Assembly: GCA_965178125.1 (NCBI GenBank)
Contig: OZ237766.1
Coordinates: 744,001 to 808,000, forward strand
Source: Bilabrum cf. latius
Taxonomy: Eukaryota
Reading direction: 5' to 3'
DNA length: 64,000 nt
The position numbers and the translations under genes were made by a program. The notes under the pieces are model-generated. The model saw nothing but the letters and a program-made list of their open reading frames with translations, was not told the DNA's origin and did not search any database. This document shows, piece after piece, positions 1 through 64,000 of the stretch. How positions within the stretch are numbered: position 1 is the first letter of the stretch; each line of letters opens with the position of its first letter.

Positions 1-2344
1 GCTCGAGAACAGCGCTGCTGATCCGGCCCCGGCCACTGCCGCCGTGCGGATCCTCCGAGACGGATGACGACGAGGAGGAGGTGATGTTGCCAGGCGCCAT
101 ATCACTGCCGTGCAGTGCACCAATTCCCAACCCCACAGCTCCACGGGCCCCTGGTGTCCCCGGGACGCTCACGCTGCCTGCAGATCTAGCCCCCAGCCCC
201 CCGTGCACGGGGCCCGCCCCCGCTTGTGCCCCGACCTCAGCCCCTGCCCCCCGCTGCTGCCCCTGCCCGTACATGCTGCCCAGCGACTGCGCCCCGATGG
301 ACAGCGCGCCCAGCCCCATGAAACCCCCTGCTGGACTACTCCCCCCCGGACTCTGGCTATGCTCCTGCACGTGCCCCTAGCCTTGATGCAGGCGCAGGGT
401 GTGCTGGGGTGCCCCCGGGGGTGTATCGCTGGGCATGGTCATCATCTGCTGCCTGTGCTCGTCCTTGATGTCCCGCTGATGCTGCATCATTTCAATGCTG
501 TTCTGCATCTGCTGTAGTGCGAGCATGCGCTGCATGTGCAGTGCACGGTGGTGGTGCAGCTGCTGCTCCCTGTAGGCCTCCGCAGGGCCGGTCATCCCAT
601 GCACGCCTGCATACCCCTAACCCCAGCCGGGGGACGATGCGGGGTGCCCCGGGGGGTACGAGGGGGCGCCAAAGGCCCCTTGGGCGGCCGCCGACAGACT
701 CTTCAGCCCCTCATGCCTCGAGCTGTGCGAGCTGGCGGTGCTGCGGTTGGACGAGACATGCTGGCTTGCCGGGCCAGTGTTTGGCAGGACGCCGCCCATG
801 CGATCCGGTCGGCGACCTGAATCATGGTACGACTGCCCGGGGCCCCGCCCGTGGAGTCCTGGAGCAGCAGGTGGCAGGCTGGGCGGCACCGGATGCAGAC
901 TGAACTCGGAGCCCTGTGAGTGTGACGAGTGTGCCGCCGGAGCGACGGGTGACTCGGGCCTGGAGCCGACTGCCACCCCATATCCCATGCCATGGGCCCC
1001 CTTGCCCTTGCCCTTGCCCTTGCCCTTGCCCTTGCCCTTGCCTTTGCCTTTGCCCGCTCTCCCCCTGCTTGACCCAGGCCCTGCCCTCGGGGCCCTCCCC
1101 TGCAGCGTGGCATCCGCGGCCCAGTCAGACACAACAGTGGGTCCGCCCAGGCCCAAATACTCCCGAAGGTGCGGGGGGACTGCAGGGCCCTGCTGGCCTG
1201 CCTCTGCTCCGCTTGGGCTGGAGCCATCCCCCCCCCTGCCTGCACCCTCGGCAGGGGGGGGCAGCACGGGGATGGCAGAGCACACGAACATCTGCGCCTG
1301 CCCGTCGCTTGCCCGCAGCAGGGACATGGACACCAGCGAGGACACGGTCCCTCGCCTGAACTTGCACAGCTTGCGGAAGCAGTGCACCATCGGAGTGCCG
1401 CACCCGTCCTGCCCCACGGTGCCAGCCAGCGGCCTGGACTGCGCCGCCACCATCATGGCAGCCCTGGCGTCTTCGCACGACTCGCAACTGTGGCGGGAGG
1501 CGTCCTCGGCCGATCCCTTTCCTCTTCCATTGCCTTTCCCCTTCCCCTTTCCTGTACCTCTACTTCGATCACTGCCCGCACTGATGCTTCCCTGTCCTGC
1601 CTCCGCTCCGTCACCACCGCCATCACCACCGCCATCACCACCGCCATCGCCACCGCCACCCCCATTTACCCCCCTGCCTTCCTGCTTGCCCTGGTGAATG
1701 AGGGAGGACACCACGTCGAACATGCTGTCCAGCTCGCTCTGGGGGGTCAGCGAGAACACGCTAGAGGCGCGGAGCTGGTCTGCCGTGTACCCCGTGAGCG
1801 CCCTGAACAGGGCGTTCGTGCGGCGGAAGGAGCCGTCCGGGGCTGCCACCGCCATGGCCACGGGCGCCAGTTCGAACACGCAGGGCAGCGGCAGGGGGGC
1901 GCCGGGCAGCGGCAGCAGAGCGCCGGGGGCAGGCACGGGGGTGGGTCGCACGGGGACTGGGGCGGTGTAAGAAGGGACTCCCCCTTGGGAAGGCAAGCCG
2001 CTTCCAGGCACGGCGGGTATGCTGGGGTACGTCTGCTGGGAGGCCGCCTCCGACTCGCCCCCGGTCCGGAGGGACGAGAGCAGGCTGGCCCCGGGATCAC
2101 CGCCGACATGTCCAGCAGTAGGCGGCATCATCCCCAGCTGGATCTTCAGCTGCAGGATGTACTCGTGTGCCCCCGCCAGGATGGAGAACTTGTCCCGGCG
2201 CGTTTCTCTGCCATCTGCCTGCAGCAGCGCGCGGAGGTCCTCGATCTTGAGGCGAATCCTCTCGGCACGGCGCTTTTCGCTGGCATTGTGGCTTTCTCGC
2301 TTTCCATCTCTGCGGGGTGTGGGCTCAAGAGCAACGGGGGACAT
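1..2344 (-). CDS. bHLH-PAS transcription factor, 3'-partial (runs off window start)
   Basis: bHLH motif KRESHNASEKRRAERIRLKIEDLRALL...DKFSILAGAHEYILQL, then a PAS-like segment FELAPVAMAVAAPDGSFRRTNALFRALTGYTADQL. The frame continues through TAGs at 617-619 and 377-379 into a Gln-rich tail with no TAA/TGA down to position 1. A (GK)n repeat lies at about 1000-1053. Confidence 0.85.
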
Positions 2345-2786
2345 TTAGGGTCGCACCGTGGCGGTTTGGCCGCGGTTTCGACCTACCTGGGACGTGTCTT
2401 GAGCAGCTGGACGAGAGCCGCAAGCGCCAAGATCCCCAAGGCAAAGCTCACGTGTGACCATTCTGCAAGAACCAGAGAAATACTTGCGAAGGCAGATAGA
2501 TTGATCCTAGTCGGCAAACTGAACACCAAACTCATCCGACCCAAACAGCAGTACAGAACTTACTTCCGTCCTTCGGCGTTTCATGCCTACTCCCTTGGAG
2601 CTTATGTATCACAATGCAAACAGTGGTGCAAGCAATCTGCCCAGTGGACTCCTCTAACAGGCACAACGTGGAGCATACCGGTCAATTATCGGAAGTGTTG
2701 CATTGTTGCGTGCTGTTATGGGCATTTCGTCTGGTAAAGTTTTCTGCGCAATCTTCTCGTGCAACAGCAGCTTTCAGAAGGAGACG

Positions 2787-3823
2787 ATGGGGTCCACTGA
2801 GGCCAAATAGACCTTTTGGTGTCTCACTGCAGTAGCAGCTTTCGTCAGCTGCTTTCTGGTGGGCTACAGTGTCGGTGAGATTCTGTCCATTCGGGCCCAC
2901 CTTGTACTCAATACATCCCTGCTGAACGGTACTTACAAGGCTTATTGAACAGCATCAAACACGCAGACACGTACCACCCGCTAGAAATGGCGTTCGTCAT
3001 GGATCAGAACCGAGGCGTGCCCGAGACAGGCAGGCTATACAACAATGGTGGTGGGCGGATCATGACGGGGCTGGGACGCAGGTTTGGTTTCAAGTATCCC
3101 AGGAATGCACGTCGGCTGCTTTTCGTCAATGGACAAGGCGCGATGTCTCGACTGATTAGCGGCCGCCTTCGAGACGGCTTGCAAGTCGACATCGGCTTGT
3201 CCGTGCAGTACAAGCTCAGGCAAAGCCAGCAAGAGATGGAAGATCTGTTGTACTCCTACGGCGACGACTGGGAGTCGTTTTACGTGAGGTACATCCGTGG
3301 GGCCGCGCGCAACGTGCTCTCTCAGCACGGCGTGTTTGACATGTGGGAGCGCAGGGGCGACATCCAGGCGGGCCTGGAGCGCGAGATCGGGAACGTGCTG
3401 CGGCGGAGGCACGCCGACCTGGTGGCGGTGCAGCTGTTGAGCCTGGACATCCCCGCGGCAGTGCAGAGCGCGATCGAGAGCACGACGGTGATGGCGCAGA
3501 ACCAGTTCGAGGCATTCGAGCGCAAGGCCGCGACCAACGTGAGCGAGTACACGAGGTTCTTCGAGGCGGACAGGGACGCGGACATTTAGGTGATCAACGC
3601 GAGGAAGGACGGGTTCGTGCTGCTTAGACAGGCCGAGGCAGCGGCCACCTCCCGGCAGCTGGAGATCGACGCGCAAGCCGACTCTCTGGTGGAGCTGCAG
3701 CGTGGCCTCAACATCACGGACAAGGACCTGCTGCTGGCGCTGCTGTACATGGACACACTGTCTGCCACCAGCTCCAGGGTCAGGTTTGGGGTACCGCAGG
3801 CGCAGGCAACCGTGCAGTCATGA
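2787..3823 (+). CDS. SPFH/band-7 (prohibitin-like) membrane protein; exons 2787-2874 and 2967-3823
   Basis: N-terminal anchor FWCLTAVAAFVSCFLVGYSV. A GT-AG intron at 2875-2966 restores the frame. SPFH-like motifs RLRDGLQVDIGLSVQYKL and VQLLSLDIPAAVQSAIE. In-frame TAG at 2808 and 3587; ends TGA. Confidence 0.8.
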
Positions 3824-4277: not shown

Positions 4278-5413
4278 ATGGCAAGTTTCAGAGCTATGAA
4301 TGGGCGATTTACCTTCGCACACATGGTGCTGGCAGGATTTGCAGGCACACTCGTAGGATTCTTCGCATTTAACATCGCACAGACAGGGACAACTACTGCA
4401 GTAAGTCAGAAGCCAACACTGGTGCATGGTCCGCGGCTCAAGTATTGCTTAATCTCCGTGCGACATGAGTTTCAAAACAGATACTGCAGAGCGAAACGGC
4501 CTCTGGGTTGTAGCAAGCACGCACCACTCCTCAGGCTGCTGAGAGTACTACCGAGAAAGCATGCCCGGCGTGCGTTTGTGAGTGCGCTGCACAAAAGTGC
4601 CCGGCGTGCCATGGATCTTCACCTGAGGCTGCCATAGCCAGTGACCCTAAAAAAAGTACGTGCGAGGCGTCCTTCGATGTAGCGCCATACAAGTTGGAGC
4701 CGTTGGCCATCAGCAGGTACTCTCCAAGCAGCTTGTGGAGAAAACAAGGCCGCGGCCGCATGCATGAAAATGTCCCAGAAGATGTACAGATGGATGGCAT
4801 CGGCGACTTCTACTCGCTGCGGGCCAAGAAGCGGATGAATGGGTGGTACGAGCCTGGGCAGCTACCTACTCGCCTCAAGCACACGCAAGGCGCCCTACGT
4901 GACGTGCTTAAAATCAAGCCAACAGAGAGTGTCTTAGATCTAGGGTGCGGAAACGGCCTTACGACCCGGTTCATTCACAACGAGCTCGGTGTGAAGGACA
5001 TCATCGGCTCTGATCTGTCGGAAGGTCTCCTGGCAGCAGCAAGGAAGCACAACCCCAGCATCAAATTCATCCAGCACGACGCGACGACCCTGGACCTGGG
5101 GCGCACCTTTGACGTCATCGCTATGGTGGACTCTTTCGAGCACATCCCACAGGAGCTGTACGACGGCATGTTTAGCGTTCTCCGCTAGCACTCCAAGGAA
5201 GGCACGCGCGTATTCTTCTCGATCCCGGCCCCAGAGTTCCAGATCCAAATCTGGAACGAAGGAAAGTCCTATGCACAACCTGTGGACGAGAGCGTGTGGC
5301 CCTCTAAACTGGCCCAGCGCTTGGAAGAAAACGGATTCTCGCTGAGGTACTGGAAGTACTGGAGCAACATTCGGGTGGATGCGGTAGCGGTGAGGCAGAA
5401 CCATGGGGCGTGA
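4278..5413 (+). CDS. Type II membrane class I SAM-dependent methyltransferase (copy 1)
   Basis: TM anchor in exon 1 (4278-4400); GTAAGT intron to CAG at 4480 or 4489. Motif I VLDLGCGNG and FDVIAMVDSFEHIP. In-frame TAG at 4511 and 5186; ends TGA 5411-5413. Paralog at 46192-47321. Confidence 0.85.
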
Positions 5414-5929: not shown

Positions 5930-7456
5930 TCATTGGAATGCCCATGCTGGCTCGGACGGGCAACTCTTCGCATCGGGTCCCCAGGGCCCTGAATCACAGC
6001 AACCCAGTGCGCTGCATCGTGGCAGCCAAAGCCTCCCCTCACCAACATCATCAACCTACCCGACCATGCAAGGCCCCCTGCAGGCCGGGTCTGTAAGCGG
6101 TCCCAACAGCCAGGCAAACAGCCCCACCCCCGCCAGGTACCCCGCCCACGCCATCGGCACCCACCACTGCACCACCCCCGCCTCCAGCAGCTCCACCACT
6201 GTCATTGGAGCCCCCTTCACCCTTTCCTCCTCCTCAGGCTCCGCCCCGCCCTCGTCTCCGTCCCACAGCCTCATACCCCCTGACAGCCGCCCCTCGAGGC
6301 CCTCCCTCGCGCGCACTAACCGGAGCAGGCCCTCCCGCCGTGCCTGCGCCCGGCTCCGAGTTGTCCCCAGGGTGACCCCCATGGTATCCAGGGGTATTCC
6401 CCGCAGTGCCCCCACATCGGGGAACCCAAAGAAGTTGCACAAGGAATGCGCAGCCATGCTGGCCCCTACGCTTCCGGTCCGAAGCATGACATACCCTGCA
6501 AACATGCCGAACAGCGTCGTGTACGCGAACTAAAAGATGCATTGCACTGTAGCTCGGCTTAGAGGTATGCGCTCCACGCGCACCAATCGGTACAGGTGGT
6601 GCAAGTGCGCCACCCCGAAGAGCAGCGGGGACATCAGTACTACCGCAGCATGCGAGAACCCGCCCTGTAGCAGCAGCGCACACACGCATGCCCTGAAGAC
6701 CCACTCCTCGGTGAAAGGGGCCACCACCAGGTTGCGACCGATCAGCAGCACCTGCTGCATGCGCGCCTCCTCACTGTCCCCGGGGTCCACCAAGTACCGC
6801 CCGCCCAGCCGCTTGGCACCGAGCTCGAGCGTCCTCCACAGCACGCCAAGCTCGAGGGGGGGCAGCGCCTGCTGCCAGCGCCTCGGGCCCTTCGAGAGGG
6901 CGCGGTCGGCTGCGGCCCGGGCTGCCTGCACTTCACCCTGCGCTTCAAATGACTGGCTCGGTGCGTCCGCGGCAACACCCCCACCAGTGCCCGCAAGCGG
7001 CGCCTCGGCGGCCTACTACTCGGCCCGCTCCATCGCCTACCGCAACTCGGTGGATTGGATGCATATTGCATCGGCGTGAGCCCAAACCCGTGCATCAGCC
7101 TACTGGATTGCCTGCAAGAATCCATGCATGCCGGATACGAGCACTGGTCCAAAGAACAGGGCCAGCACTAGCAACAATGATCTAGCGGTGGCGTCTACCA
7201 GCCTAACCATGTCTACCATGCCATGCAAGACGCCAAACGGAACATGAAACTGTCCCTAAATTGAATATATTGCTATGCTCGGCATAATTGCTAGAATGCA
7301 GTACAGTAGTGTCGCAATGCTCCTGAAGATGATCTGCTTGGGATGATCTCTGTCCAGTTTGCGAAGACTGCTTGGGGCCATGTACAAAATACCGACGAAT
7401 CCAACGGCAACCACAGTAGCAGCTCCTACAGCACCAGCTGCAGATATGGATTGCAT
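5930..7456 (-). CDS. RCE1: CAAX prenyl protease 2 (Rce1-like)
   Basis: Motifs RNLVVAPFTEEWVFR, FGVAHLHH, F*FAYTTLFG and HSLCNFFGFP. One continuous 509-codon frame with 7 in-frame TAGs (7256, 7100, 7037, 7016, 7013, 6530, 6056); ends TGA. Confidence 0.9.
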
Positions 7457-7639
7457 CGTATTCAGGGGGTAGCGGCAGTCAGTGATGCAATCGTAATTTT
7501 GACTTTTTCCACGAGTGTTGTTGCGACCGCAGCTCTTCCCGTGGTACACGGTGCCCCGGAGAGGCCCCGATACGACGGTGACCTAGGCGATCGATTTCCT
7601 GCGCTAGTGCCGGCCTTCGTGCTGGATCATGCCGCAGCG

Positions 7640-8716
7640 ATGTTCGTGGCCATGGATACAGTCACCCAGGGAGTGCGCAGGCACCGCATGGCCCACGCCG
7701 GGAGAGCTGCCACAGCGGCGGTGCAAGAAGCCGGCCGTGTGCTGCGCCAGGGCCAGCCTGCATGCCACCCGTGCGGCCTGCACCAGCTGCGGATGCAATG
7801 TGCGATTACAGCGCTCGTGCAGGCGCCAAAGGGCGCCTCGCCCGCGGAGATGCTGTGGGGGATGATTGTTCCAGTCGCGGTACAGCCAGCTGCGAGCAGC
7901 GGCTGGCAGTCCGGCGTGCGGAAGAGCCTGAAGGCTGCCGCCGCCTGCGTCCCAGCCGTGCAGCAGATGCTCAAGCCGTCACTCGGCCTGCACATGCTGT
8001 GCCAACGAGGGGAGAACTCGCGCGCGAGCGCCGTGGACGTGGCGCGAGCCGCACTGCCTGGAGCCCTGGCCAGGGCCTACTGCATTCGAACCAAGCGCGT
8101 GAGCCCGGATGTGCTGGGCACGAGGGTCCTCAGTTCGCCCGCCCCGCCAGAGCCGTCGGTTCCTACGCTGTCGGAGGAACAGCTCCAACTTGCCAATCTT
8201 CAGTGGAAGCTGTCCAGGCTCGGTTGCTAGCGGGACCTCACCGCAGCCACAGACCATTTTGAGTCGAAACGATCCGAGTACAGGCTGCCTGCCCACGCGC
8301 TGAAGTGCTTGTTGGCAGCGAAACAAGCACGCAAGGAGTCTGCTCGCACTGGCAGGGGAGTCGCTCGAAAGGCTGGGAGGGATGCGCAGAGCGCAAGCAG
8401 TGGGGGCAAGTCCGGCGCGAAGCTACGGCGCAAGTCCACCCGCACCGCAGCAGCATCTGCATCCGGACTGACCACCCATCGCCGCTCCGGGGGCGGCGAG
8501 ACCCCGGATACCCCAGAGCCCCTCGTGAATGACCGAGGCCCGGCAAGGCAAGACTCTTCGTTCATGTGGGCCCAGGCTGCCAAGGGCAACGGTGGTGGTC
8601 ACTATAAGTGGCGGGCGGCCATAGCCGATGTCGAGGAGGACGAGGATGATGGGCTGTAGAAGCCGGCATAGAGGGAAGCAGTCACGAGGCAGGCGCTCGC
8701 CCGCCGACGGGCATAA
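7640..8716 (+). CDS. Hypothetical protein, possibly transposon-associated; may extend to 9080 via a frameshift
   Basis: ORFs 7343-8230 and 8309-8659 share a frame joined by TAG; first TAA at 8714-8716. No recognisable domain. Adjacent sequence matches the interior of the long-TIR element. Confidence 0.3.
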
Positions 8717-15467: not shown

Positions 15468-15981
15468 TGTCAAATCGTGAGAAGACACTGAGTTGATCTC
15501 CACCAAAATGATTGCTGTTTAGAACTACTGAGTCTACTACGTAAACACTAATTGCACACGCTGCGCGTTGTGTGTTTGATGCGGCACAAATAGCTAAGTT
15601 TTTGCACGTAAATCTCGACTTTTTGCGGAACATGCTGTATGGCGCCGCGCGCTCAGCGAATAACCCGAATTTTACACCGAGATTACGCTCACCTTTTTCG
15701 AAAAAATCATTTAGCCCAATTCGAACTAAGTCATCGTGTAGATGGTATATTTTTGAGTTGTACACATATCACTATCTCCGGCGTGCTCTCGGGACGATGA
15801 GCCGAGCTCGACCCATTGGTTACAGTTCCGGTCTTACAGGACCTGCATGGCCAATCTGAGTCTATTTAGGATGTTCTGTGTGGACAGGGACAGGCCAGCT
15901 CAGCCTACGCAAGTCGGTTAGGTCCTAAAATAAATATTCTTCTGAAACTCCGCGCATACTTTCACGCAAATCATGGTGCGT

Positions 15982-17280: not shown

Positions 17281-17387
17281 CGTCACTTGGCCGCCACAGG
17301 CTGCGCTGATAGTTCTACGCCGTGCTCACACCTTGGGGAGTTGCAACCGGTTCTAACCTCTGAAGAGGTTGCAACCGCCGGTGATTT

Positions 17388-24415: not shown

Positions 24416-24754
24416 ACGCCTGTTCGCGGTCGGCACAGCTTCAAGTCGTAAGGATGCTGCGACGTATTTCTAGCTGCTACTGGCAGCCTGATTCTTCGCA
24501 TCCTGATCGACGGGAAGTGAGCTCATCGCTGCTTCAGTTTGTGGAGTACTGAGACGAAGACACGGCGTTTCTAGTCGCTAGATGGTGTCGTCAGATCCTA
24601 AAAGAATTCAATATTATGTATTGGTCTTGATGTCTTCGCCCCTAGTAGAGGCGATCGACGAAAGAACTGCCTGGCTCCGCTCATTTCAGGCTCGCCCCCT
24701 GGTTATATCAAATTTTCGTGCAAAGTGTACGCAACCACCTGGCAGATCCTCAGC

Positions 24755-25946: not shown

Positions 25947-25954
25947 TCTCAGCA

Positions 25955-43822: not shown

Positions 43823-44565
43823 AGGGACTCGCAAAATAGGAATCAGCGAAGAAACCAGGCAGTCCTGGAAAAGCCAGGCGAATAGGGGACTGGAGTGCAT
43901 CTGTGGGGGCTGCACAGCCCGAATTATCAGCGCGAATGGCAGAGTCCACAGGTGCAGTTGCCGCTTTTGGGGCCGAGACGGTACAAAGGTGGGCCGTGAA
44001 GCTGGTCGAGCCTACCATTTGGAACGACTGTAAAAATCCATGATACCATTGAATACTAGAAGTGCGAATATATACAATCACGAAGTTGCAGCAAAATCGA
44101 AATGGCAAAGTTGATTCGCGAAATCCTGGCCATGGCATGAAATCGAGCCATACTTGCCGATATTTCTCGGTATCGAAGTCATAGGTACTCTCAAATGAAA
44201 ATAATAGTAATTAGCCTTCTTTCGGAGAAGGAAAGGAAAGCAATGCGGCATGGCAGGGACTTACGGCTGATGGCAGAATTATTGTCCCCAATCTCGCGCC
44301 AGAATCGGCCCAAGAACGCCCTGAGTTAAGCGTCCCGAATCTTAGTATCAAATGACCGTATCAGCAAACCGAAACTAGAAAACACGTGCGTTTGTGGTCA
44401 AGGATATATTGAGAGAGGGAGTAGTTCGCTGCGGGGAGCCCAGGGGTTGTTAGAAAGTTCGTTTGAAGTCGTGGGGGGCGTCAAAATTCCGGAAGTGGCT
44501 CCTGAGTACTCGCATCCCTCGCTCTCCCCTCGCTGTTTACAATCGGTTGCAAAAGCCTGTTACGT

Positions 44566-52285: not shown

Positions 52286-53795
52286 GCTCCAGCTGATGTG
52301 CGAGGAGCCTCGTGGAACAGTTTGTATACTCTCTGGTGCTGGATGCTAGCGCACTACTAGGACTCCCCAGGGTGCAACCGGTAGCACGCTCTAAAAGTCT
52401 GCTAGTGGTAATAACAGAAGAGACTTAAAATTTGCTAGACATCTGGCCAAAAGAGGAGCTGAATCGAACATTACGTTAAGACACGCGCGCCAGCATGAGA
52501 TATGCAATGCAACTTCGGGGCGCAGTCTCGAGCCCAAACGGAAAGTACAACTCAGGCATATGCAAACCATTTAAATGGCCCGTCTTACCTTTGTAGGGCT
52601 AGCGTCTACTTGAGTTTCCGAAAGGGTCGAATAGTGCGTTGGGAACCCAAAATCACCCACAAAAGGTAAGGTAACGTGCACTTTCCCCCGTCGGCCCGTC
52701 GGCCGAGTCCGGTCGCATAGGAAGGATGTGGTCGCACTGGGTTGCCAATGTAGTCGTCCAAAATGTGGCATCAGCTGGACAGTTGCTGAAGGCTGGTCCT
52801 AACGATAAGGTTGCAGTTCGACAACAGGGGGAACATGAGACGCAGGCCACCAACGAGCTGGGACGAGGTGGCAGCGGGCAGCGGACAGGCCAATGAGTAG
52901 GGGAGGTGATGGAATTTGCAGTCAGGTGGGGAGGTCTGATGTGCCCAGAGATGATCACGAAGGCAGGCTGCTGCTGGAAGTGTAGCGCTGAGAATGATTT
53001 GGGGGGAGGGAGGGAAGTGTGGCAGAGACGAGTCAGCACCGTGCTCTGCACATAAGCTTAGCGTGTCTGTTAATTGAGAAGCGTGTTATATGGTTGGCAG
53101 CGAACGGATTCCCGCACAGTCGATCCGGAGTCCGGACGGGAGGCATGAAGAGGTGGAGTGAGACGGGCCTCCGCATTTCTCTACTTTATTGGAACCATCG
53201 CAACTGACGGCGATCGGGCCCGGATCTGACCATGTGTAGGCAGGAGTAACAAAGTCAATTGTATCAGAGTTCATCGCAGTTGTGCCAGCCACACCAACCC
53301 AAACCACTGGTGGATTGGCCATTGCAGGGCATTGCCACTTTCACGCATGAGCACCTTGCTTCAGGCTACCACCCACTGGAGTAGTACCAGTGCCACTAGC
53401 ACGACATAGCAGTGTTTACCATACAGCGTAGGTGCCGTGCAAGAAGTATATTTCAGCCGCTCTTGCGTATTGCACGGTAGAAGCTGGTGCTATTCGCAAT
53501 TTGAAGTTGAGCATAATACATGTCAGTGAGGAGCCGAAAGACCCACATGCCGGAAAATCATGTATTAGCTGTAAGCTACGGTACACAATGCGAATTCAAT
53601 GCCCGCCTTCTGTTTCAGGAGTGTCTCCAACTATAAGTTTGCAGGTAGCGTCAGTTGGTCCCTGTCACTTGTTGCCCCCGATTCACCCAAAGGTTCTTTT
53701 TCCCGATTATTATTTAGTTTTAATGTTAGCAGGTACTTCATTGGTGTGGGGTGACTTGCAGGTCGCTTGGTCATCGTTTTGCCCAGAGACAACTG

Positions 53796-56700
53796 ATGGC
53801 AGCCATGCTATTCGCCGGAGCTGTTCTAGTCTTGGTGGCGCTCTTCGCGAGCAATGTAGTTCTGCCGTCTGTAGCTAATCGAGTTAAGCTAAGTCCTCCT
53901 GGCGCTACGCGAGGCCAACAGCCAGCTGTCCGTGTCGCTGTGCCGGGCGAAGCCCCGAGCACAGGAATAGGCCGGGGGTGCCCCGCCGAAGAGCAATCGC
54001 ACGTGCTCTTCTCGTTTGATGAGCTGGACTTGCCGGGCTTTTTCATCGCCACTTCCTCTGTGTTTGCCAACACCAAGCGGCCGGAGTGCATCAGGGTGCA
54101 TGTGCTGTGCCCCTCGTAGGCCGAGGCAGACATCCGGGCCTCGTGCGCCTGCTCCATGCCTCCCTAGGCCTGCGCCTCCCTGCACTTTGTGCGCACGCGG
54201 CCCTTGACCAAAACAGTCACTGGCTCCAACACCCGCGGCAAGCACCTGGACTCCCCGTACAACCTGGGTCGGCTGGAGGCTTTCGACGCACTGGCCCCTT
54301 CTGTGGGCAGGATCGCCTACCTGGACTCTGATGTACTCGTGCTGGGGGATGTGCGGGAGCTCGTGCAATTTGATCTGCAAGGTACCGCGACTGCCTTCGC
54401 CTGGGAGCAGGACAGGTCTATGTGCAACCCATGGGGGGTCAAGTGCGGTCACCCCGCTCTGAAGCAGGCAGGCCTTACGAAACAGTTGCTGCAGCGCAAG
54501 ATGGTGGGCAATGCAGGGATCATGGTGGTGGATCTACAAGAGTGGAGGAAGCAAGATCTGAGCAGACGGGCCCGGCTCTGGTCTCACCTGAACCGCGACG
54601 GGGAGCTTTTTCTCCTCGGTTCGCAGCCGCCCATTATGCTGGCCACCATCAACAGCCGGGCTCAGCTGCCCACTGCCTGGAACCAGAAGAATGAGAAGAA
54701 AAACGACACGCAGCTCGTGCACTTTGCGGGCCCGGATAGGCCCTGGCGGGTGGATCGCCCCGGCCCGTACGCCGAGGCCAAGGCATTCCTGCGATGCCGC
54801 ATGGGCTACAAAGAGGCCTCCACCTCGCGTGACCGCAATATGGTGGCTTATTCGAGGTATATGGCGGAGTACGGCGTCAGGACGGAGGGTGAGGCGCTGC
54901 CGCAGACCGTCAAAGACGTTCCTCTGCGTGACCTGCTAGCCTGGCGTGCAAGGCAGCCAGTGGCACAGCGGCTGGGCGTGTTTATAGACAGGGCAGCCCA
55001 GAAGCACTACGTCAGGACGGTGCTGGGGCAAGAGGGGTACTCAACGGAGACGCTCGCTGTGCTTGAGGCAGGACCACAAGGGGATGTAGGCGCGCTGGAC
55101 AGGGACCTGCTGCCCCGAGGGCTTCTGGCGAGCTCGTCCTCCTCCACGGTGAGGGGCGGTGGCGGACTAGGTGCCTCGCCGGGGTCTATGCATCTCATCG
55201 TGCGGCCGCTGCACATGCCTGATCTGGTGATACACGTGACGGATGGCGCCGTGGATTCATCCCCCTGGAAGAAGGATGTGGGCCAGGCTGTGACGGAAGG
55301 ACTGATCCGTAAGTGGCTGGGCGTGGTGACCCAGCGGTGCCATCGCTGCGAGACAGAGCTACAGAACGCGGGTGTGACGAGGGGGCTGATTGTGGAGAGG
55401 GAAGAAGAGTCGCTCGAGGGGCAAGAGGGGGTGCGCCTGCTGCATGACGGCCTCAAGATCTGGTGCACGAGGGGGGTGCCCATGCTGGTGGAAGTCGAGA
55501 CGCGTGGAGGGGGCGGCAAAGGGCGCCGCAGATCGTTCTACACCCCCGGATGGGACCCCCTCCGAGTCAGCAAAAAATACCCGATGGATCCAGCGGCCAG
55601 CTCTCGCTAGGCCCCTCTGTTGCTACCAGAGGCCCTTCGGGTGGCTGCCGAGCTGAGCAAGCCCTTCTCCTTCGTTCGGGTGGATCTGGGCTCGATAGAC
55701 AACCGCATCGTGGTGCAGCGGTTCTCTTTCGTGCCAGACGGGGTGGACGGCCCCACCTTTGAGCCCCCTGCCTTTGGATACGCTCTATCTCGGCTCGTGC
55801 AAGCCCCCCCTTCGCATGCTGCTGCCAAAGCCGCCATGCTGCCCTTTGTCAAACAGCAGGAGTGCAGCAAGACCTTGGTGACGGGCGCGGCCGGATTCAT
55901 CGGGAGCCACTTGTCCAAGGAGCTGCTGGACAGTGGGCGCCCCGTGGTGGGGATCGACTCGTGGAATGCGCTGGACGAGGAGCACAGCGCGCTGATGGAC
56001 GCTCGGGTGGCGGGGCTGGAGAAGGACAAGGGCTTCCACCTCGTGCGATCAAGCACCTGCAACGTGCATGCCATGGTGGCTCTGCTCAGGGAACACAGGG
56101 TCTGCGACATCGTGCACCTCGCAGCGCAGCCGGGGGTGAGGCGGTCCACTCGCAGGCCCATGGAGACGGTAGAACTCAACGTGGGCTGCTTCGCCAGCAT
56201 CCTCGAGGCTGTAGCTCGGTTCAACTCCACCATCCGGGTCGTGTACGCCTCCAGCTCCTCCGTGTACGGGGCCAATGCGGTGTCCCCCTTCGTGGAGACG
56301 GCATACCCCGTACCAGCCAGCATATACGCCGCTTCCAAAGTGGCGGACGAGGCGTTGGCGCAGTCGTACCGTAACGTGCACAAGCTGAACCTGCTGGGCT
56401 TGCGGTTCTTCACCGTGTACGGGCCCCGGGGCAGGACGGACATGGCTGCGTACATGTGGGCGCGGGCCATCGAGGCGGGTGAGTCCATCAAGGTGTTCCA
56501 GACTCCTTCGGGGGTGGAGATGGCCAGAGATTTCACGTACGTAGGAGACATTGTGAGAGGTATCCACGGGGTGCTGCCTCGACGGGACGTGACGGGCGTG
56601 CTCAACATCGGTAAGGGCAGTCCAGACAAGGTGTCAGACCTGATCGGCGAGCTGGAGGTGTGCTTCGGCAAGAAGGCCGTGCTGGACAAGGTGCCGCAGC

Positions 56701-56867
56701 CGCCGGGCGACGTACCGATCACCTACGCGGACACGACCAAGATGGCGAGGCTGGTGGGATACCGCCCTGAGGTGAGCTTGTAGGAGGGCATCCGGCGCTT
56801 CTGTGAGTGGTTTAAGTCGGACGAGGCCAAGGCAGTGAGGCGCAAAGCAGCGGTGGCTCTTGGCTGA
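53796..56867 (+). CDS. Triple fusion: GT8, degenerate TupA-like ATP-grasp, UDP-glucuronate 4-epimerase-like SDR (copy 2)
   Basis: Colinear paralog of 37332-40448. TAGs at 54117, 54165, 55608 and 56781, none shared with copy 1; ends TGA at the same position. Start uncertain. Confidence 0.9.
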
Positions 56868-57350: not shown

Positions 57351-59135
57351 TCAAAGTGGATCTACATGTGCCCTACCTTGCGACTTAACAGTGCCTTGCT
57401 CCACATAATTCTTGGTGATCGCAGCCCTGAGTATATCCACGGCAGAGGGACCCGTGAAGTCCGCTCGATACAATGCGTCTGTAGGCCCACGAGCCACGCC
57501 GTAGAAATTGAGCATCTCGGCAATCGCTCGCACTCCCTCCATCATCTCTCGCACCTTGCTGTCGGGAATCGCGCGCAGAATCGGAAGCAGCTTGCCTTGG
57601 CGAAACATCGCGTAATTGACACGCACGCTGGCCAGGTGCCAAGGGATGAATTCTCGAAACGGCATCTCCACATTGTCTTGCACGACGGCAGGGACACATC
57701 CAGATACCAGCATGTCTACCAGCCGGTGACTCCACAAGTTCGGATGCCACCCGGGGAGGTACAGACAAAACTTGGACCGCTTCAGCAAGTCCATGTATCC
57801 AGATACTCTGCCGTTTACGTAAACGACACCATCCGTCTCCTCGTTCATGTGCCCGTACAGCCGAAGGCCTGACTGACGCACTCCCTGCGAGTACGATGAG
57901 GACTCATGTTTCGGATATAGTACAGAGCCCACGAAGGTCATCGTGACGGGCCGGTTCTACAGGGGGGGCCATCGGTGCGTGGACTTCAATGCGTACCTCC
58001 CTATCGTGCCCACATCTTTATGCGCCCGGAACCCTAACCCTAGAGGGTAGCTTGGTGCAACGGTGGCAAAGATTGCGCCATGAAGACCAAAGACGTGCTG
58101 CATCCACGTCCTGCACGTCTTGAGATCTCGCCACGCCCACTTTGCGTGATCGATGGCCCACTCCCTCCAATCCATACCGGATGACGCGAGATGCTTCGCG
58201 GTAAGGTTCCAGCCAGCGCCTGCCTTCGGTGTCTGTGGAATATCTGTTTGCATGCCGAGCAAGACTTCGTTGAGGCTCCTCCCTCCCCCAGTGACTATGA
58301 TGAAGTCTGCGCCGCCAGATTGCTCCCACCGGCGTGCGAGATATGGACGCCGCAAGACACGGCGAACCACATGAGCCATGGTGTCTGCACACACACGGGT
58401 CTTGATCGACGGGGACATGGGTACCTCGGCTGTCCTCTCGATCTTCAGGGCCGCAAGGGCGATCGACTGCGTGTGCAGAGGCAGCACAATCAGGTCGGCC
58501 TGCTCCGGGCCCGCAGCCCACCCTGTGGTAGCAAGTGCACTGCTCGAAGTCTTCGTCGCAACTGACGATCTCAGAGCGGCCGCTTGCTGCCGCTGGAGGG
58601 CATCAAGTATTGCCCACTCGGATGCAAACCCTGCCTCTGCCGTTATGGACGTTCGGAAGTCCTTTGGTAGCATACCGATACCAGATAAGCCTTTGGGATC
58701 TCGTAGATCCGCAAAACCGGCTGCTGCAAAATAGCCGGATTGATCAAGCGGGCTTGTGCCCCACTTCTTGCAATTATCCTTCGTAGGCTTCGTGCGCATA
58801 CATGTAGTAGGGCACATGCGGGATTCTTCTCTTATTTCTTCCCCAAGCACGAAAAACTGCAGCTGCCCACCGGCTTCAGTCGCAGCAGCGTTCAGCCGCT
58901 GCTGCACTACACGTACGACTTTGTCGTAGGGCTGTTCTCCCCGCACCTGCATCGGTGCTTGTGTTGAGACTACTGTTTCTTTTTGCCGAATTAATTGCTA
59001 CCCATTTGGGCTACTGGCACCGCGCGATGGGATATAGGCAGCCATAAGCAGCGCAAGTGCTGCCACTACTGCTACTACTGCAAGAAGAAATAAGGCTAGA
59101 CGGGAGCGATTTTTCATCTTGGCTCTAGCAGGCAT
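57351..59135 (-). CDS. Exostosin/GT47-family glycosyltransferase (copy 2), type II membrane
   Basis: TM anchor LALFLLAVVAVVAALALLM; SKFCLYLPGWHPNLWSHRLVDMLVSGCVP; TAGs at 58998 and 57957; ends TGA. Confidence 0.85.
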
Positions 59136-60567
59136 TTTGTTTATTATTTATTCCTGATTGCGGCTCTCTTCTCTTCCAACTATGCACAAGATTGTGGCAA
59201 GGTACCTGATTCGCGTCCATTCGTAAATGATAATCACACACAACAAAACCTTCAACTTTCGGCGCCGGTATCCGTCTAAAACTTGCGCTACTCCCGAGTC
59301 CGCCATATTGACTATATTCCTGGGCGCTTTGTCAGCATCCTGCCCCTGCTGAAGTCCATTGGAAGTGGCAGTGGACCAAGTGCTACTTCAGTGCCAGACC
59401 TGCTCTGATCCGGATCGATCGGTGACAAGAGGGAAAGGACCTAAGCCCACCACTCATAGGTCTGGAGATGGGAGCGGGTGGCGGGCTGGGTAGCGGGAGT
59501 GGAGAGCTGTCGTCGCGTGCCGGGGGTCGCAGCCTGGCGCAAGCGATGCCAGTGGTCGCAAGCAGCAGAGTGTCAGGCACAATGGGCGTGCCTGCCACGT
59601 TGGAGGTCACACAGAGTCAGGAGCTGCATCTGAATCGTTGGCTGCAACTAGCTGCCGCCGTGATGCTTCGCGCTGTTGCTGCCATGGTGCTCGGGGGGCC
59701 AGCTAGCAGTTCTGAGCGCGATCCGAGCTCACGAGGCACAGAGCGCATGCCGGCGATCGGCGGCGGCGATGGGATATATCATGAAACGCTCCATAAAGTC
59801 GTTTGTGGCGGCACATCGCCGTCTCCCCGAATCCTGGATCGCTCTCGCGGTCGGCTTGCGCTGCGGTAATGTGGAGGGAGGGAGGGCGAGCAGGCCGCTT
59901 GGAGTCCTCACTCCCCAATCGAGCCGGCAGTACACGCATGCAATCGAATTTATTTCTTAATTGGTTCCATTCAAAGCGCTGTTGCATCTGCGATAGGAGC
60001 TAACTGGAGTGCTGACGCGTTGTGCCTCGAGGCTGGTGGCGTTGCAAGCTGCTGTTGGCCCGCTCATTCGACTCACCGATGCTATGTCGCCTATCTCATC
60101 ATGAAATTGCATGTTTCATACTCAATCAAGTAGTATTTCGTGGAATCACTGCTGCGGGCATTGAGCTTGCAATTGGAGGTGACAGTATTCGCGCGCCTAC
60201 GCCCGCAAGGCCCCTAACTAATACCCCGCCCGGACGCCTTTTAGTATTACTATTTATGTTAGTATGGACAGTGGGGCTGGACGATTTGTCTTTGCTTCTG
60301 CTGAGTATAAGATCGATGGCGACAAAACCAAGGATGCCAGCGCGGGGGTGAACCGGTGGGAAATCAAATTTACTACAAACATCAGGTCAAATACTAAGAC
60401 TAAACACGGCGATGCATGCAGTAGAGGTGGATCCGGGGGCCCTCAGCTCCGGCTGGGAGGGGCGCGGGTTGGCGGGAGAGCCCGACTGAAATAGACTAGT
60501 CTACCTTACGGTTGGCAGGCAATGGCTCTAAGGGTAATTCCGGACCCGCTTTGCCGCGACCCCCTAC

Positions 60568-62511
60568 TCACTATGCTCGGGGGCACAGCGCGATGCCGGC
60601 TGGATCTACCTTGAACTACACCTCTGGATGCACGAGCACGATGGCTGCCCGCACGTACTTCCACACCTTTCGGAGGCCCTGCCGCGCCATGGTAGCTCGT
60701 TTCTCATAGCGGTCACCCGACTCCCGCCCCTCCTGCCACTCGTTCTACTAGTTTTGCTAGGGCCCCCTCAACCCTGTGCCAGCGAAGTGCCGCAACTCAT
60801 CCTACCCCAGCATACGAAAGGGCAGCAGCTCCTCCAGTCCCTGCCCTCCAACCTGTCGGCACGCCACGAACGGCTCACGCCCATTGATACTTATCTCTCG
60901 GCTTGCATGTTTGGTTGGCAACATCAGCGAAGCACGCGTGGCCACCCCTTGCCCACTCTCCTTGTATTCGGGAGCAGCGCTAATCCTCTCGATGGCCCTG
61001 CATGTCTCGTTCGAAGGGCCACTCACTGACCGCAAGCACGCCTACACAGCATCCTCGTACACTTCCTTGGAATCAGTAACCGCCATCACATGCAGCGCCG
61101 TCCACGGCCAGGGTGCTTCCAGCTGTCGCTCGGCACTCCTCAGAGCCATAAGGAATGCCTCGCCATCTCCTCTCAGCAGCACCATCACAAGCACCACGGG
61201 CTACCTCCTCCAATCGAAGGGGACCGACTGCCGCGACACAACTCCTGCTGCGGCTGCAGGCACTCGGGTCCCAGTCGCTGGGTCCCACGTCCAGTACACG
61301 CTGGATGCCACCCTAGGTGCAGGCGTGCTGCCCGAACCCACGAAGCAAGCCTCGTGGTACAGCACGCTCAGGTCGTAGTAGCGCTGCGCTGCCCACCACC
61401 TCCGCTTCCCCACCAGACGCATGTTTTCCACACTAGCCCTCCACGCCTTGTGCGAGGGTCCCTTGAAATGCATAAGCTTCGGGGCCTGATCGACACCATA
61501 CACTAACCCCGCCATGTTCCAACCCGTGTTCCACGTTTGCGGGATGCGGGCCCGCCTGCCCAGCAGCGCCAGGTTCGTGGGCGGCTGCGTGCCCAGTGTC
61601 CACATCTTGCCCCCCTGGTTCCTGTCCATCCACGTCTTGGCCTCATCGCCGATGCCCTGCTGCACCCATTTTTGCGTATCGATGACCATAATCCCAGCAT
61701 TGCCCAGCCACTCTTTCTCGAGGCGTGACACGGACATGCCCCAGCTCTGCAGGGACTCCTTGACACGCCGGTTCTTGCAGTCCAAAGCGGCCAGCGCGAA
61801 GCACATCGTGGGCCACTTGGTGCCCCGATGGCCAGGCCTGGGGCACATGGCAGCCGGCTGGCCCTCTAGCTCCATCCAGACGAGCTCATGCACGTCCCCG
61901 ATCACAGCGATATCAGGGTCCAAGAACGCAATCCTGCGGGCATGAGCGGCCATGGCGTTGATCGCATCAAACCTTGCTGCGTTGAAAGGAGACTTGATTC
62001 GCTCCGCAGCCGAACCCACCACGGTTTCACGGTCCGTGCTGATGCCATCTAGGAAGTGCAAGTGTACGTCGCAGCAAAAAGCGCCAGGCTTGGGTGGATT
62101 GCAAGCTGGGCCTTGCAAGCCTAGCCCATCTAGGCACCGGGTGCAAGCTCTTCGGACAATATCGTTTGCGCGAGGAGACACGACCAAATGGAAATGGATG
62201 AGTGAGGGGTCAGCGGCAGACTGCAGGATGGAGCGGGCGGCCACTGCGAATCCTGGCGCATCGGCCTCATCAAACGACATCAGGATATCTACCTACTCTC
62301 GAGGTTTTGGTGCTACCTCCAGCCCAAGTCCGGGTGGCATTGGAGATTTGATAGCCTCTGTAACCCCAGCGCGGTGAGATATTGACAAGGCTATCGTAAT
62401 GGTAGCCGTGACCAGCACCAAAAGAGCTATCAAGACGCGGTGCTGGACGAAAACTGCAACCCACCGCGACCTTGCCTGTGGTGACCGCCGCTTGCTAGAG
62501 CTTTCCATCAT
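60568..62511 (-). CDS. GT8 glycosyltransferase with C-terminal extension (copy 2), type II membrane
   Basis: Motifs FLDPDIAVIGDV, GNAGIMVID, MWTLGTQPP and LMHFKGP. Similarity to copy 1 continues past the TAG at 61201 (PWPWTAL, GDRY, YVRAAIV). 9 TAGs; ends TGA. Confidence 0.85.
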
Positions 62512-63317
62512 CAAAAAGCCAAAATATGCCTGTGGAATCCCGTGGAACTACACTGCCGCTGCACGTATTGTGGCGACGAGATGCTTCCAACCGCTGCGAC
62601 GCCGCCTCCACTGCTTGGCCGACCAAAGCTTTGCAAGCCCAGCACCTCGTAATGAAAGGTTGTTATTCTAAACCGTGTCGGGAAGAAGTAGTTGAGCGCG
62701 GGAATCCAAACAGGGAACTCCGAGATAATCATTCCTACTTTGCAGCATAGTAACGTGTGGTTTTGTATATCAGACGCATACTGCCACAAGCATGCTCAGC
62801 CCAAAGCTAGGGAGGACTTCGCCAAACCGGCGGACAATCCGTTTATTCAACTAGCTATTATTGCTCATGCGTTTTTGATCCAGCCATGGCTTCAGTCTCG
62901 GCCGCGGCCATACGCTCTAAGATGCTGCGAGTACTTGCGAGAACCGCACCTGATGCGTCTTGCTTGCGGATACCTCGAACTGCGCGACAGTTCTCGCCAC
63001 CGCACTTACGTCGGAAACCCCGATTATGTTGCTACAACAGGCTTTGCACATTTTGGCTGGATCGGATGGCCAGGGCTTGGCGCGCTCTCGATCCACCTCC
63101 GTTTGTTGCCGATTGCAAGCCAAGCTGAAGTGGTTGCAACTTCAAAATTAGCAATTCTGTGGCATGTTGCGTGCTATTTTGAGCGCTGAATGACATCGAA
63201 TTGGTCCCCGCTGCACAGGAGCGGAACGACCGTGAGCTGGGTCGGGCTCAATAAAGTACTGCTTCATTTTTAGGTACTGCTCGAGTGCAGCTCCTGGTTA
63301 TATCAATTTAGCTCGCA

Positions 63318-64000
63318 ATGCCGTCGCCCGCCCTTCCGCGGCCGCTGCTGAAATCTACTTCCCGTCAGGTGATCGTTATCAGCGTCTTGGTTCTTGCTAT
63401 TGTCACGCTCCCGTTGGTGATTCCATCACTAGCAGGGTTTCGTGTGAACCGGGGCTCGCAGTACGCTGTGCAAGTACCGACAGAGCCGCCAAGCGCTTCC
63501 GTTGATTCGCCTGTCTCGTCGGGCTAGGGAGCACAGAACCTCGAAGGTCCAAAACCTCCATTACAGTTAAAGCGGGACGGAAAATGGAGAGGCGACATGT
63601 CGGTGCGGGATGAAGGAATCACAGTGGTCCTGTTGAACTTTAAGCGTCCCGAGCATCTCAAGAAGATCGTACGGGCTTACCTCGAGATGCCAGAGGAATT
63701 CATCCGCGATGTTTACGTGTTCAACAATGACGATATTGATTTCCGGGATATGTTCGACCCCTTGCAGGGAGGGAGCTCTCGGGTGAGGGTAGTGGACGCC
63801 CACGCCAACCTTGGCATCGGGAATTCACGATTCTTTGCTGGGACCCTGGCGCGGACTAGGGCCGTCCTGACGCAAGATGATGACTTGCTCTTGACTAGGT
63901 AGGGAGTGGAGCGTTTGTACGAGCATTGGAAGCGGGAACCGGACCGCATCCATGGCGCCTACAGCCGAGGCCCAACTCTGAATCGTAAGGCTGGGAGCAG
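63318..64000 (+). CDS. GT64 (EXTL2-like) glycosyltransferase, 3'-partial
   Basis: TM anchor; ITVVLLNFKR, NSRFF, TRAVLTQDDD and WKREPDRIHG; TAGs at 63525 and 63900. Confidence 0.8.

What the first reader, a model, noticed from the sequence alone, without database searches (positions are those of the whole stretch)
1..64000. Non-standard nuclear genetic code: UAG read as sense (most likely Gln), UAA and UGA still stop
Seen: about 22 genes are interrupted only by in-frame TAG (roughly 100 by hand count), and family motifs or paralog similarity resume in frame after it. Paralogs mostly carry TAG at different positions opposite sense codons. About 19 reconstructed termini are TGA, two are TAA, and none clearly TAG. 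Known: in eukaryotic nuclei UAA and UAG are usually reassigned together; UAG-only reassignment has been reported rarely (for example Iotanema, UAG=Gln). Inference: this is a UAG-only code equivalent to NCBI table 15, possibly an unreported origin for this lineage. I cannot confirm novelty without knowing the organism.
Basis: partly seen in the sequence, partly recalled or inferred. Interest (0 to 1): 0.97.

Follow-up and report, generated by a model that had tools for sequence, protein, structure and literature searches.

The report
Nuclear code: UAG read as glutamine
This GC-rich stretch of a eukaryotic genome is packed with genes that only make sense if the stop codon TAG is read as an amino acid, most likely glutamine; this is a rare but already known kind of genetic-code change, and the organism could not be identified.

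Summary
In 20 gene-like ORFs (12,901 codons) the coding frame holds 108 TAG, 0 TAA and 0 TGA. The other five frames each hold 40-72 TAA and 88-254 TGA. 16 TAGs lie inside Pfam domain matches and 34 inside paralogue alignments. Of the 40 TAG codons in the 20 kb laid, 34 stand unchanged in contigs of two RNA-like runs that also show GT..AG splice joints. Editing, miscalls and pseudogenes are therefore excluded. Of 19 complete 3' ends, 18 are TGA and 1 is TAA. The residue is most likely Gln. At 23 well-aligned TAG sites the homologue has Q 8 times and E 3 times, and log-odds are Q 20.2, E 11.7, K 7.2, S 0.7, L -24 bits. Two relatives' ORF fragments end exactly where the window has CAG. Pfam scores cannot separate Q, E and K (938.9, 940.1, 938.1 bits), and one TAG sits at a position that scores 4.4 bits better as Glu. 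Evidence that TAA stops is thin: one terminus plus its absence in frame. No tRNA, eRF1 or rRNA could be examined and the organism is unidentified. UAG-only Gln codes are known (Iotanema, some ciliates), so this is a new or unplaced member of a known kind.

The parts
2..2344 (-). bHLH-domain protein; 2 in-frame TAG; its 3' part runs off the window start
   Evidence: Pfam HLH, E 5e-11; TAG positions
2879..3823 (+). SPFH/Band 7 protein; 1 TAG; ends TGA
4469..5413 (+). Class I methyltransferase; 2 TAG, with codon 240 inside the domain; ends TGA
5930..7798 (-). Rce1-like CAAX protease; 9 TAG, with codon 423 inside the domain; ends TGA
13713..15518 (-). GT47 exostosin-type glycosyltransferase (GT47a); 5 TAG; ends TGA
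15982..17325 (-). Membrane-anchored protein with no Pfam family; 8 TAG; ends TGA; a weaker gene call
19650..21080 (-). GT15 alpha-1,2-mannosyltransferase; 3 TAG; ends TGA
22031..24526 (-). GT47-like protein; 4 TAG; ends TGA
28729..29790 (-). TsaD/Kae1-like fragment; 4 TAG; weak call, next to the RT element
29956..33537 (-). Large GT47 protein; 15 TAG; ends TGA. Relatives' fragments have Q opposite codons 367, 1145 and 1159, and V opposite codon 1074
35461..36738 (-). Dephospho-CoA kinase; 4 TAG, with codon 358 inside the domain; ends TGA
37014..40448 (+). GT8 + TupA-type ATP-grasp + NAD epimerase fusion (F1); 5 TAG, 3 of them inside the alignment to F2; ends TGA
40535..42943 (-). TupA-type ATP-grasp protein (A1); 6 TAG; ends TGA
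44506..45906 (+). GT92 glycosyltransferase; 5 TAG, 3 inside the domain, one in the stretch D-L-D-TAG-Y; ends TGA
47773..49683 (+). GT8 protein (GT8_a); 7 TAG; the only gene ending in TAA; fully covered by an RNA-like contig with no differences
49910..52570 (-). TupA-type ATP-grasp protein (A2); 8 TAG; ends TGA. A 5' intron at 52399-52588 means the true start lies downstream of 52398
53751..56867 (+). GT8 + ATP-grasp + epimerase fusion (F2); 4 TAG, all inside Pfam matches; ends TGA; has a 5'UTR intron at 53526-53732
57351..59147 (-). GT47 protein (GT47b); 2 TAG; ends TGA. RNA-like contigs of two studies span 57104/57126 to 59180
60568..62748 (-). GT8 protein (GT8_b); 11 TAG; ends TAG-TGA. A relative's fragment has Q opposite codons 516 and 569
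63255..63998 (+). GT64 glycosyltransferase; 3 TAG; runs off the window end
25908..28403 (+). Contrast case: a reverse-transcriptase ORF of 831 codons with no TAG at all

Best explanation
The window comes from the nuclear genome of a GC-rich eukaryote that is not a ciliate. In it UAG is an ordinary sense codon, about 8 per 1000 codons and about 18% of Gln-type codons if it means Gln. It most likely encodes glutamine, while UGA (the main stop) and UAA still terminate. This matches NCBI table 15. Shown here: TAG lies in frame inside conserved domains, is kept in transcripts, and is the only stop codon found in frame; homologues most often have Q opposite TAG. Inferred, not shown: UAG is decoded by a tRNA-Gln with anticodon CUA, derived from tRNA-Gln(CUG), and eRF1 has lost recognition of UAG while keeping UAA and UGA. 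This is what was proposed for Iotanema (passages of PMC5304391).
For: Frame 0 of 20 ORFs holds TAG 108, TAA 0, TGA 0 in 12,901 codons, while stops of all three kinds are common in the other five frames. 16 TAGs lie inside Pfam best stretches and 34 inside paralogue alignments. Contigs of runs X3 and X6 show four GT..AG or CT..AC joints that the DNA runs X1 and X4 lack, and have no depth over intergenic 52672-53338. Their listed pieces cover 34 of the 40 TAG codons in 44001-64000 with 0 other letters. Termini are 18 TGA and 1 TAA of 19. F1 and F2 both end at ...ALG, at or before the point where the aligned epimerase homologues end. GT8_a (TAA) and GT8_b end at aligned positions. For the residue, the homologue at 23 reliably aligned TAG sites is Q 8, E 3, T 2, S 2, R 2, K 2, and A, H, P, V once each. 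BLOSUM62 log-odds are Q 20.2, E 11.7, K 7.2, R 4.2, S 0.7, L -24.3 bits; BLOSUM45 and BLOSUM80 rank them the same way. Controls with the same share of identical partners, run at the 19 sites, recover CAG as Q in 96% of resamples and GAG as E in 97%. Fragments P0173 and P0172 end exactly where the window has CAG.
Against: Pfam score sums over 12 family hits in 10 segments do not separate the polar readings: TAG=Q 938.9, E 940.1, K 938.1, S 932.7 bits (my sums). In GT92 the TAG in D-L-D-TAG-Y scores 4.4 bits better as E than as Q. From memory, not from any call, that position is a conserved Glu in this family. The CoaE column opposite TAG is D 89, E 18, A 5, Q 3. The epimerase column is E 17, R 8, A 8, D 4, S 3, Q 3. 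In the closest paralogue pair, F1/F2 at 80% identity, only 1 of 7 TAG sites faces Q; TAG sits mostly at variable sites, which weakens any inference from conservation. Only one gene ends in TAA. No tRNA, eRF1 or peptide evidence exists: the window has no tRNA gene and no whole genome is held. The tool itself labels X3 'RNA? (probably DNA)'.
Confidence: 0.74

Rival explanations
1. UAG is a sense codon but encodes glutamate, or lysine, rather than glutamine. UAG means Glu in the ciliate PL0344, and UAR means Glu in Blastocrithidia.
For: The Pfam total is 1.2 bits higher for E than for Q. The GT92 D-L-D-TAG-Y site favours E by 4.4 bits. The CoaE and epimerase columns are dominated by D and E. F1 codon 465 faces E in F2, A1 and A2.
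Against: Homologues show Q at 8 of 23 TAG sites and E at 3. Pairwise log-odds favour Q over E by 8.5 bits and over K by 13 bits. In relatives' fragments, 5 of 8 TAG sites face Q and none faces E. Two fragment ends face CAG.
Confidence: 0.1
2. Both UAA and UAG are reassigned to Gln (table 6 type, as reported for Amoeboaphelidium and some ulvophytes). On this view UGA is the only stop, and TAA is simply rare in a GC-rich genome.
For: 18 of 19 termini are TGA. The single TAA terminus has no further in-frame stop within 50 codons. UAA and UAG usually change together (passages of PMC5304391).
Against: There are 0 in-frame TAA in 12,901 codons. From the A-ending to G-ending ratios of CAR, GAR and AAR codons (0.31-0.40), 33-43 would be expected alongside 108 TAG. 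TAA is present 40-72 times in each of the other frames. GT8_a ends at TAA within one aligned position of its paralogue's end.
Confidence: 0.07
3. UAG has a dual meaning: sense inside genes and stop near some 3' ends, as in codes whose termination depends on context.
For: GT8_b ends with TAG directly followed by TGA, and 6 of the last 97 codons of this ORF are TAG. In-frame TAG is common just after the TGA stops.
Against: None of the 19 termini needs TAG. The C-terminal tails of GT8_a and GT8_b still align to their ends.
Confidence: 0.05
4. The TAGs are not translated at all. They would be sequencing or assembly errors, RNA-edited sites, spliced-out pieces, or lesions of pseudogenes.
For: None found.
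Against: Only TAG interrupts the frames: 108, against 0 TAA and 0 TGA, with no frameshifts. Two DNA runs and two RNA-like runs, from three studies in all, agree letter for letter across the TAG codons. The only joints lie in 5' leaders, apart from one weak 110-base joint at depth 2.
Confidence: 0.02

Closest known systems
Iotanema spirale (Fornicata): UAG = Gln, UAA and UGA stop (PMC5304391; passages read)
   Same: Only UAG is reassigned, the residue is glutamine, and it is a nuclear code in a non-ciliate.
   Different: In Iotanema UAA is the primary terminator; here 18 of 19 ends are TGA. Iotanema is known from a transcriptome of an anaerobic metamonad. This window is 58% GC genomic DNA with bHLH, GT47, GT64, GT15 and retroelement genes. 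Relatedness was not tested.
Protocruzia tuzeti and two phyllopharyngean ciliate lineages: UAG = Gln only (PMC11687900; passages read)
   Same: Same codon, same residue, and UAA kept as a stop.
   Different: The window does not look like a ciliate macronuclear genome: 58% GC, introns of 89-207 bases, a retroelement and a TIR element. This is inference from general knowledge, not a test.
Amoeboaphelidium protococcarum: UAR = Gln (cited in PMC5304391 and PMC6299283; the original 2013 paper was not seen)
   Same: Stop-to-Gln reassignment. The best named CoaE hits for the window are also from Fungi, the group aphelids are related to.
   Different: Both TAA and TAG are reported as sense there. Its genome is 40.5% GC (PMC10608142 Table 1) and its proteins are in NCBI, yet no close hit was found. 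The window is not that organism.
Scotinosphaera (UAG = Ser) and rhizarian exLh (UAG = Leu)
   Same: UAG-only nuclear reassignments with UAA kept as a stop (PMC8271138; PMC5304391).
   Different: Ser is 19.5 bits and Leu 44 bits below Gln at 23 sites. Ser is about 6 bits lower in the Pfam totals.
Code 15 in crAss-like phages
   Same: TAG = Gln (PMC9523058, abstract start in the listing).
   Different: The window has spliceosomal introns and eukaryotic gene families, so it is not a phage.

Membership tests
UAG-only Gln nuclear code (NCBI table 15 type) | In-frame UAG inside conserved coding sequence | tested here: met
   16 TAG inside Pfam best stretches and 34 inside paralogue alignments
UAG-only Gln nuclear code (NCBI table 15 type) | UAG present in the mature mRNA, neither edited nor spliced out | tested here: met
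   34 of 40 TAG codons lie in contigs of the RNA-like runs X3 and X6 with 0 differences. That these runs are RNA is inferred from their splice joints
UAG-only Gln nuclear code (NCBI table 15 type) | UAG aligns with Gln in homologues | tested here: met
   Q at 8 of 23 sites. Q leads E by 8.5 bits. Pfam totals are neutral between Q, E and K
UAG-only Gln nuclear code (NCBI table 15 type) | UAA is not used as a sense codon | tested here: met
   0 in-frame TAA in 12,901 codons, against 33-43 expected if it were used like TAG. This rests on one 64 kb window
UAG-only Gln nuclear code (NCBI table 15 type) | UAA terminates genes | tested here: inconclusive
   1 of 19 termini (GT8_a), supported by the aligned end of its paralogue
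UAG-only Gln nuclear code (NCBI table 15 type) | UGA terminates genes | tested here: met
   18 of 19 termini. F1 and F2 end at or before the point where the aligned epimerase homologues end
UAG-only Gln nuclear code (NCBI table 15 type) | A tRNA-Gln with anticodon CUA | not testable with these tools
   No tRNA gene in the window and no whole genome held
UAG-only Gln nuclear code (NCBI table 15 type) | eRF1 N-domain changes that weaken UAG recognition | not testable with these tools
   eRF1 is not among the window ORFs given to Pfam, and no genome is held
UAR = Gln code (NCBI table 6 type) | In-frame UAA as well as UAG | tested here: not met
   0 TAA against 108 TAG in frame
UAG = Ser (Scotinosphaera type) | UAG aligns with Ser | tested here: not met
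   S at 2 of 23 sites. 0.7 bits against 20.2 for Q. Pfam total is 6.2 bits below Q
UAG = Leu (rhizarian exLh type) | UAG aligns with Leu | tested here: not met
   L at 0 of 23 reliable sites; -24.3 bits. Not run through Pfam
UAG = Glu (PL0344 type) | UAG aligns with Glu | tested here: inconclusive
   E at 3 of 23 sites and 8.5 bits below Q, but the Pfam total is 1.2 bits above Q and one conserved position favours E

The most novel reading that the evidence does not exclude
This is an independent, so far unreported origin of a UAG-only glutamine code in a GC-rich, intron-poor, non-ciliate eukaryote that terminates almost only at UGA. Genomic DNA and RNA-like runs already exist for it. The resident reverse-transcriptase ORF has no TAG at all. 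That fits a mobile element that arrived recently from a standard-code genome, and would let one test whether a code change limits incoming mobile elements.
Probability: 0.35. Interest if true: 0.78.

Novelty: new member of a known kind. Interest (0 to 1): 0.62.

Why it matters
Nuclear codes in which UAG and UAA differ in meaning are few, because eRF1 reads both codons. Each independent case is a natural experiment on how eRF1 and a suppressor tRNA uncouple them. This case would stand out for three reasons. It is GC-rich. UGA is its main stop, whereas Iotanema uses UAA. TAG is about as frequent in frame (108) as in the non-coding frames (85-140 each), so the reassignment looks complete rather than recent. 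There is also a practical point. Standard gene callers cut these genes into pieces: the related proteins found in public collections are fragments of 153 to 469 residues, and three of them begin or end where the window's homologue carries TAG or CAG. Annotation of this genome and its relatives therefore needs table 15.

Tried and rejected
- **Whole genome:** none is held, so tRNA(CUA), eRF1 and 18S could not be examined.
- **tRNA and Rfam scans of the window:** nothing found.
- **RNA holders:** no RNA holder is listed on record. X3 and X6 are only guessed to be RNA.
- **Metagenome scan with F2:** one distant locus at 23% identity and no close relative.
- **Word-index search with F2:** only epimerase-domain hits at 27-47% identity.
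- **Profile search of 1.84 billion representatives with the GT47 alignment:** only distant hits, plus two useful fragments, P0256 and P0178.
- **PDB search with GT92:** no hit.
- **PDB alignment of the methyltransferase:** TAG faces N, V, R or A, which is uninformative.
- **GT47 family columns:** mostly too few sequences. Two columns are hydrophobic: I/Y/L/V at GT47big codon 1074 and V/I/L at codon 985. These fit no polar reading.
- **Pfam rescoring under TAG = Q, E, K, S:** cannot separate Q, E and K. L, Y and W were not run.
- **Amoeboaphelidium as the source:** rejected on GC content (40% against 58%) and the lack of close NCBI hits.
- **Nuclearia thermophila:** only its GC content was checked, 44% against the window's 58%.
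- **Lineage:** unresolved. The best named CoaE hits are fungi and animals. The best long GT47 hit is Cafeteria. One epimerase hit is Aureococcus. The word-based candidate choice biases these lists, so I built no tree.
- **Literature searches:** none returned a paper on a GC-rich non-ciliate with UAG-only Gln other than Iotanema.


Full report
**What the window is.** It is 58% GC and has no tRNA gene and no Rfam match. Under the standard code, ORFs of at least 150 codons sum to 26,135 codons and the longest is 859 codons. Freeing TAG alone gives 48,217 codons and ORFs of up to 1,195 codons. Freeing TAA alone changes little, to 32,772 codons. The TAG-read ORFs carry Pfam domains: bHLH, SPFH, a methyltransferase, Rce1-like, dephospho-CoA kinase, GT15, GT92, GT64, four GT47-type proteins, two GT8 proteins, two TupA-type ATP-grasp proteins and two GT8 + ATP-grasp + epimerase fusions. 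Their codon-position GC pattern is coding-like (GC2 about 0.45-0.52, GC3 about 0.6-0.78). Many start with a short tail followed by a hydrophobic anchor, as type II membrane glycosyltransferases do; that reading is mine, from the translations.

**Is TAG really in frame?** In 20 ORFs (12,901 codons) frame 0 holds 108 TAG, 0 TAA and 0 TGA. The other five frames each hold 85-140 TAG, 40-72 TAA and 88-254 TGA. The ORFs were delimited by TAA and TGA, so the zeros alone are not independent evidence. The independent evidence is this:
- 16 TAGs lie inside Pfam best stretches (my count).
- 34 lie inside four pairwise paralogue alignments spanning 5,754 codons.
- Paralogues carry TAG at different positions; only one site is shared.
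- Paralogue pairs end at matching positions.

Some N-terminal TAGs are probably not coding. F1 codons 93-94 lie upstream of where F2 begins. The first ATG of the A2 ORF lies inside an intron seen in RNA-like contigs. The safe number is therefore below 108.

**Transcripts.** One search for sequencing runs listed 8 rows that hold all or part of the stretch, from 4 studies, with coded names. I laid four of them on 44001-64000. X1 and X4 behave as DNA, with even depth that includes intergenic DNA. X3 and X6 are labelled only 'RNA?' by the tool, and X3 'probably DNA'. They nevertheless show joints with GT..AG ends on the gene's strand: 53525>53733, 53570>53733, 59987>60077 and 52398>52589. X1 and X4 lack these joints. 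X3 and X6 also have no depth over intergenic 52672-53338, and their depth varies about 100-fold. I therefore treat them as RNA. Their listed contig pieces cover 34 of the 40 TAG codons in this stretch with 0 other letters. None of the differing letters listed lies in a TAG codon. For GT47b, contigs of both runs span 57104/57126 to 59180. That is a transcript whose 1,797-base ORF fills it only if two TAGs are read through. This excludes editing, splicing-out and miscalls.

**Terminators.** Of 19 complete 3' ends, 18 are TGA and 1 is TAA (GT8_a). F1 and F2 end at the same residue, at or before the point where the aligned epimerase homologues end. GT8_a (TAA) and GT8_b end within one aligned position of each other. 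If TAA were used like TAG, the A-ending to G-ending ratios of CAR, GAR and AAR codons (0.31-0.40) predict 33-43 in-frame TAA; there are none. TAA therefore behaves as a stop, but the direct evidence is a single terminus. No terminus requires TAG. GT8_b ends TAG-TGA.

**Which residue?** I first checked for serious rivals, because UAG = Ser, Leu and Glu are all described.

*Pairwise evidence.* I took the closest homologue at each TAG site and kept sites with at least 4 of 10 flanking identities. This gave 19 sites, with log-odds Q 13.9, E 9.9, K 6.9, R 4.4 and S 1.9 bits. Controls resampled to the same share of identical partners recover CAG as Q in 96% of resamples, GAG as E in 97% and AAG as K in 91%; some other codons do worse.

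*Fragments from other assemblies.* A profile search with the GT8 paralogues found only three proteins. All are ORF fragments from Logan assemblies: P0173 (86% identical to GT8_a), P0172 (78-82% identical to GT8_b) and P0174. The GT47 search gave two more, P0256 and P0178, at 47-50% identity to the large GT47 protein. Opposite eight TAGs these fragments have Q, Q, K, T, Q, V, Q, Q. P0173 and P0172 end exactly where the window has CAG; P0174 ends where it has AAG or CGA. I could not see their DNA, so I only infer that these ends are TAG codons. I also cannot tell whether the fragments come from relatives or from paralogues.

*All 23 sites together.* Partners are Q 8, E 3, T 2, S 2, R 2, K 2, and A, H, P, V once each. 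Log-odds are Q 20.2, E 11.7, K 7.2, R 4.2, S 0.7 and L -24.3 bits, with the same order under BLOSUM45 and BLOSUM80.

*Results pointing the other way.* I rescored ten gene segments against Pfam with TAG read as Q, E, K or S. The totals are 938.9, 940.1, 938.1 and 932.7 bits (my sums), so Pfam cannot separate Q, E and K. The GT92 site D-L-D-TAG-Y scores 4.4 bits better as E. The large GT47 protein scores 3.0 bits better as Q. The CoaE column is D 89, E 18, A 5, Q 3 and the epimerase column is E 17, R 8, A 8, D 4, S 3, Q 3. In F1/F2 (80% identical) only 1 of 7 TAG sites faces Q. TAG sits mainly at variable polar positions.

*Net.* Gln leads Glu by roughly 7 bits. I put Gln at about 0.85 given that TAG is sense.

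**Who is it?** Unknown. No whole genome is held and the run names are coded.
- Close proteins are absent from the named databases. The best hits are 38-47% identical for CoaE (fungi, nematodes), 39-47% for the epimerase, and Cafeteria for the longest GT47 match.
- A metagenome scan found nothing close.
- I tested the idea that it is Amoeboaphelidium, for which TAR = Gln is reported. I rejected it because that genome is 40.5% GC and is in NCBI.
- GC content, introns of 89-207 bases with GTRAG...AG ends, a retroelement and a TIR element argue against a ciliate macronucleus; this is inference.

**Comparison with what is known.** UAG-only nuclear codes are described for Iotanema (Gln), rhizarian exLh (Leu), Scotinosphaera (Ser), Protocruzia and phyllopharyngean ciliates (Gln and Leu), and the ciliate PL0344 (UAG = Glu, UAA = Lys). 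I read passages of PMC5304391, PMC11687900 and PMC8271138, and only the listing abstract of PMC10553269. The present case has the same meaning as Iotanema's but differs in stop usage: UGA here, UAA there. Eight full-text searches found no paper matching this organism's features. That does not show it is unpublished.

**Verdict.** It is a table 15-type nuclear code in an unidentified GC-rich eukaryote. It is a new or unplaced member of a known kind.

Noticed in passing
window 25908-28403 (+): The reverse-transcriptase ORF (RVT_1; weak likeness to R2-type and group II intron RTs) has 0 TAG in 831 codons and 53 CAA/CAG codons. At the host genes' TAG rate the chance of none is about 1e-3. By TAG's 18% share of Gln-type codons it is about 3e-5. 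It may be a recent arrival from a standard-code genome. It lies next to the truncated TsaD-like ORF at 28729-29790.
   Followed up: partly
window 17543-19309 and 33651-35408; partial copy 8793-9484: A 1.77 kb repeat, 96% identical between copies, with terminal inverted repeats of about 270 bases (98%). No Pfam hit in its ORFs. It looks like a non-autonomous TIR transposon.
   Followed up: partly
window 37014-40448 and 53751-56867: Two paralogues (80% identical) fuse a GT8 glycosyltransferase, a TupA-like ATP-grasp domain and an NAD-dependent sugar epimerase behind one membrane anchor. No protein with this full architecture appeared among the 51 hits. Stand-alone GT8 and ATP-grasp paralogues lie nearby, so the region is a cluster of sugar-polymer genes.
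   Followed up: partly
window 53526-53732, 53571-53732, 52399-52588, 59988-60076: The only well-supported introns lie in 5' leaders, with two alternative donors for F2. The long coding regions appear to have no introns.
   Followed up: partly
window 45298-45300 (GT92 codon 265): A TAG sits in the stretch D-L-D-TAG-Y just after the DxD motif. Pfam scores Glu 4.4 bits above Gln there. Either this enzyme carries an unusual Gln, or this is a hint of Glu decoding.
   Followed up: partly
window 60568-60573: GT8_b ends with TAG directly followed by TGA, and 6 of the last 97 codons of this ORF are TAG, well above the average of 8 per 1000.
   Followed up: no
window 49380 and 59231; also 49222-49333: Contigs of DNA runs X1 and X4 join 49380 to 59231 with only a 20-base side, which suggests a short shared repeat or a structural variant. 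X6 shows a weak 110-base joint (depth 2) inside the GT8_a coding region.
   Followed up: no
window 43514-43822 and 44532-44834: A 309-base direct repeat at 97.7% identity. Its second copy overlaps the first 330 bases of the GT92 ORF.
   Followed up: no
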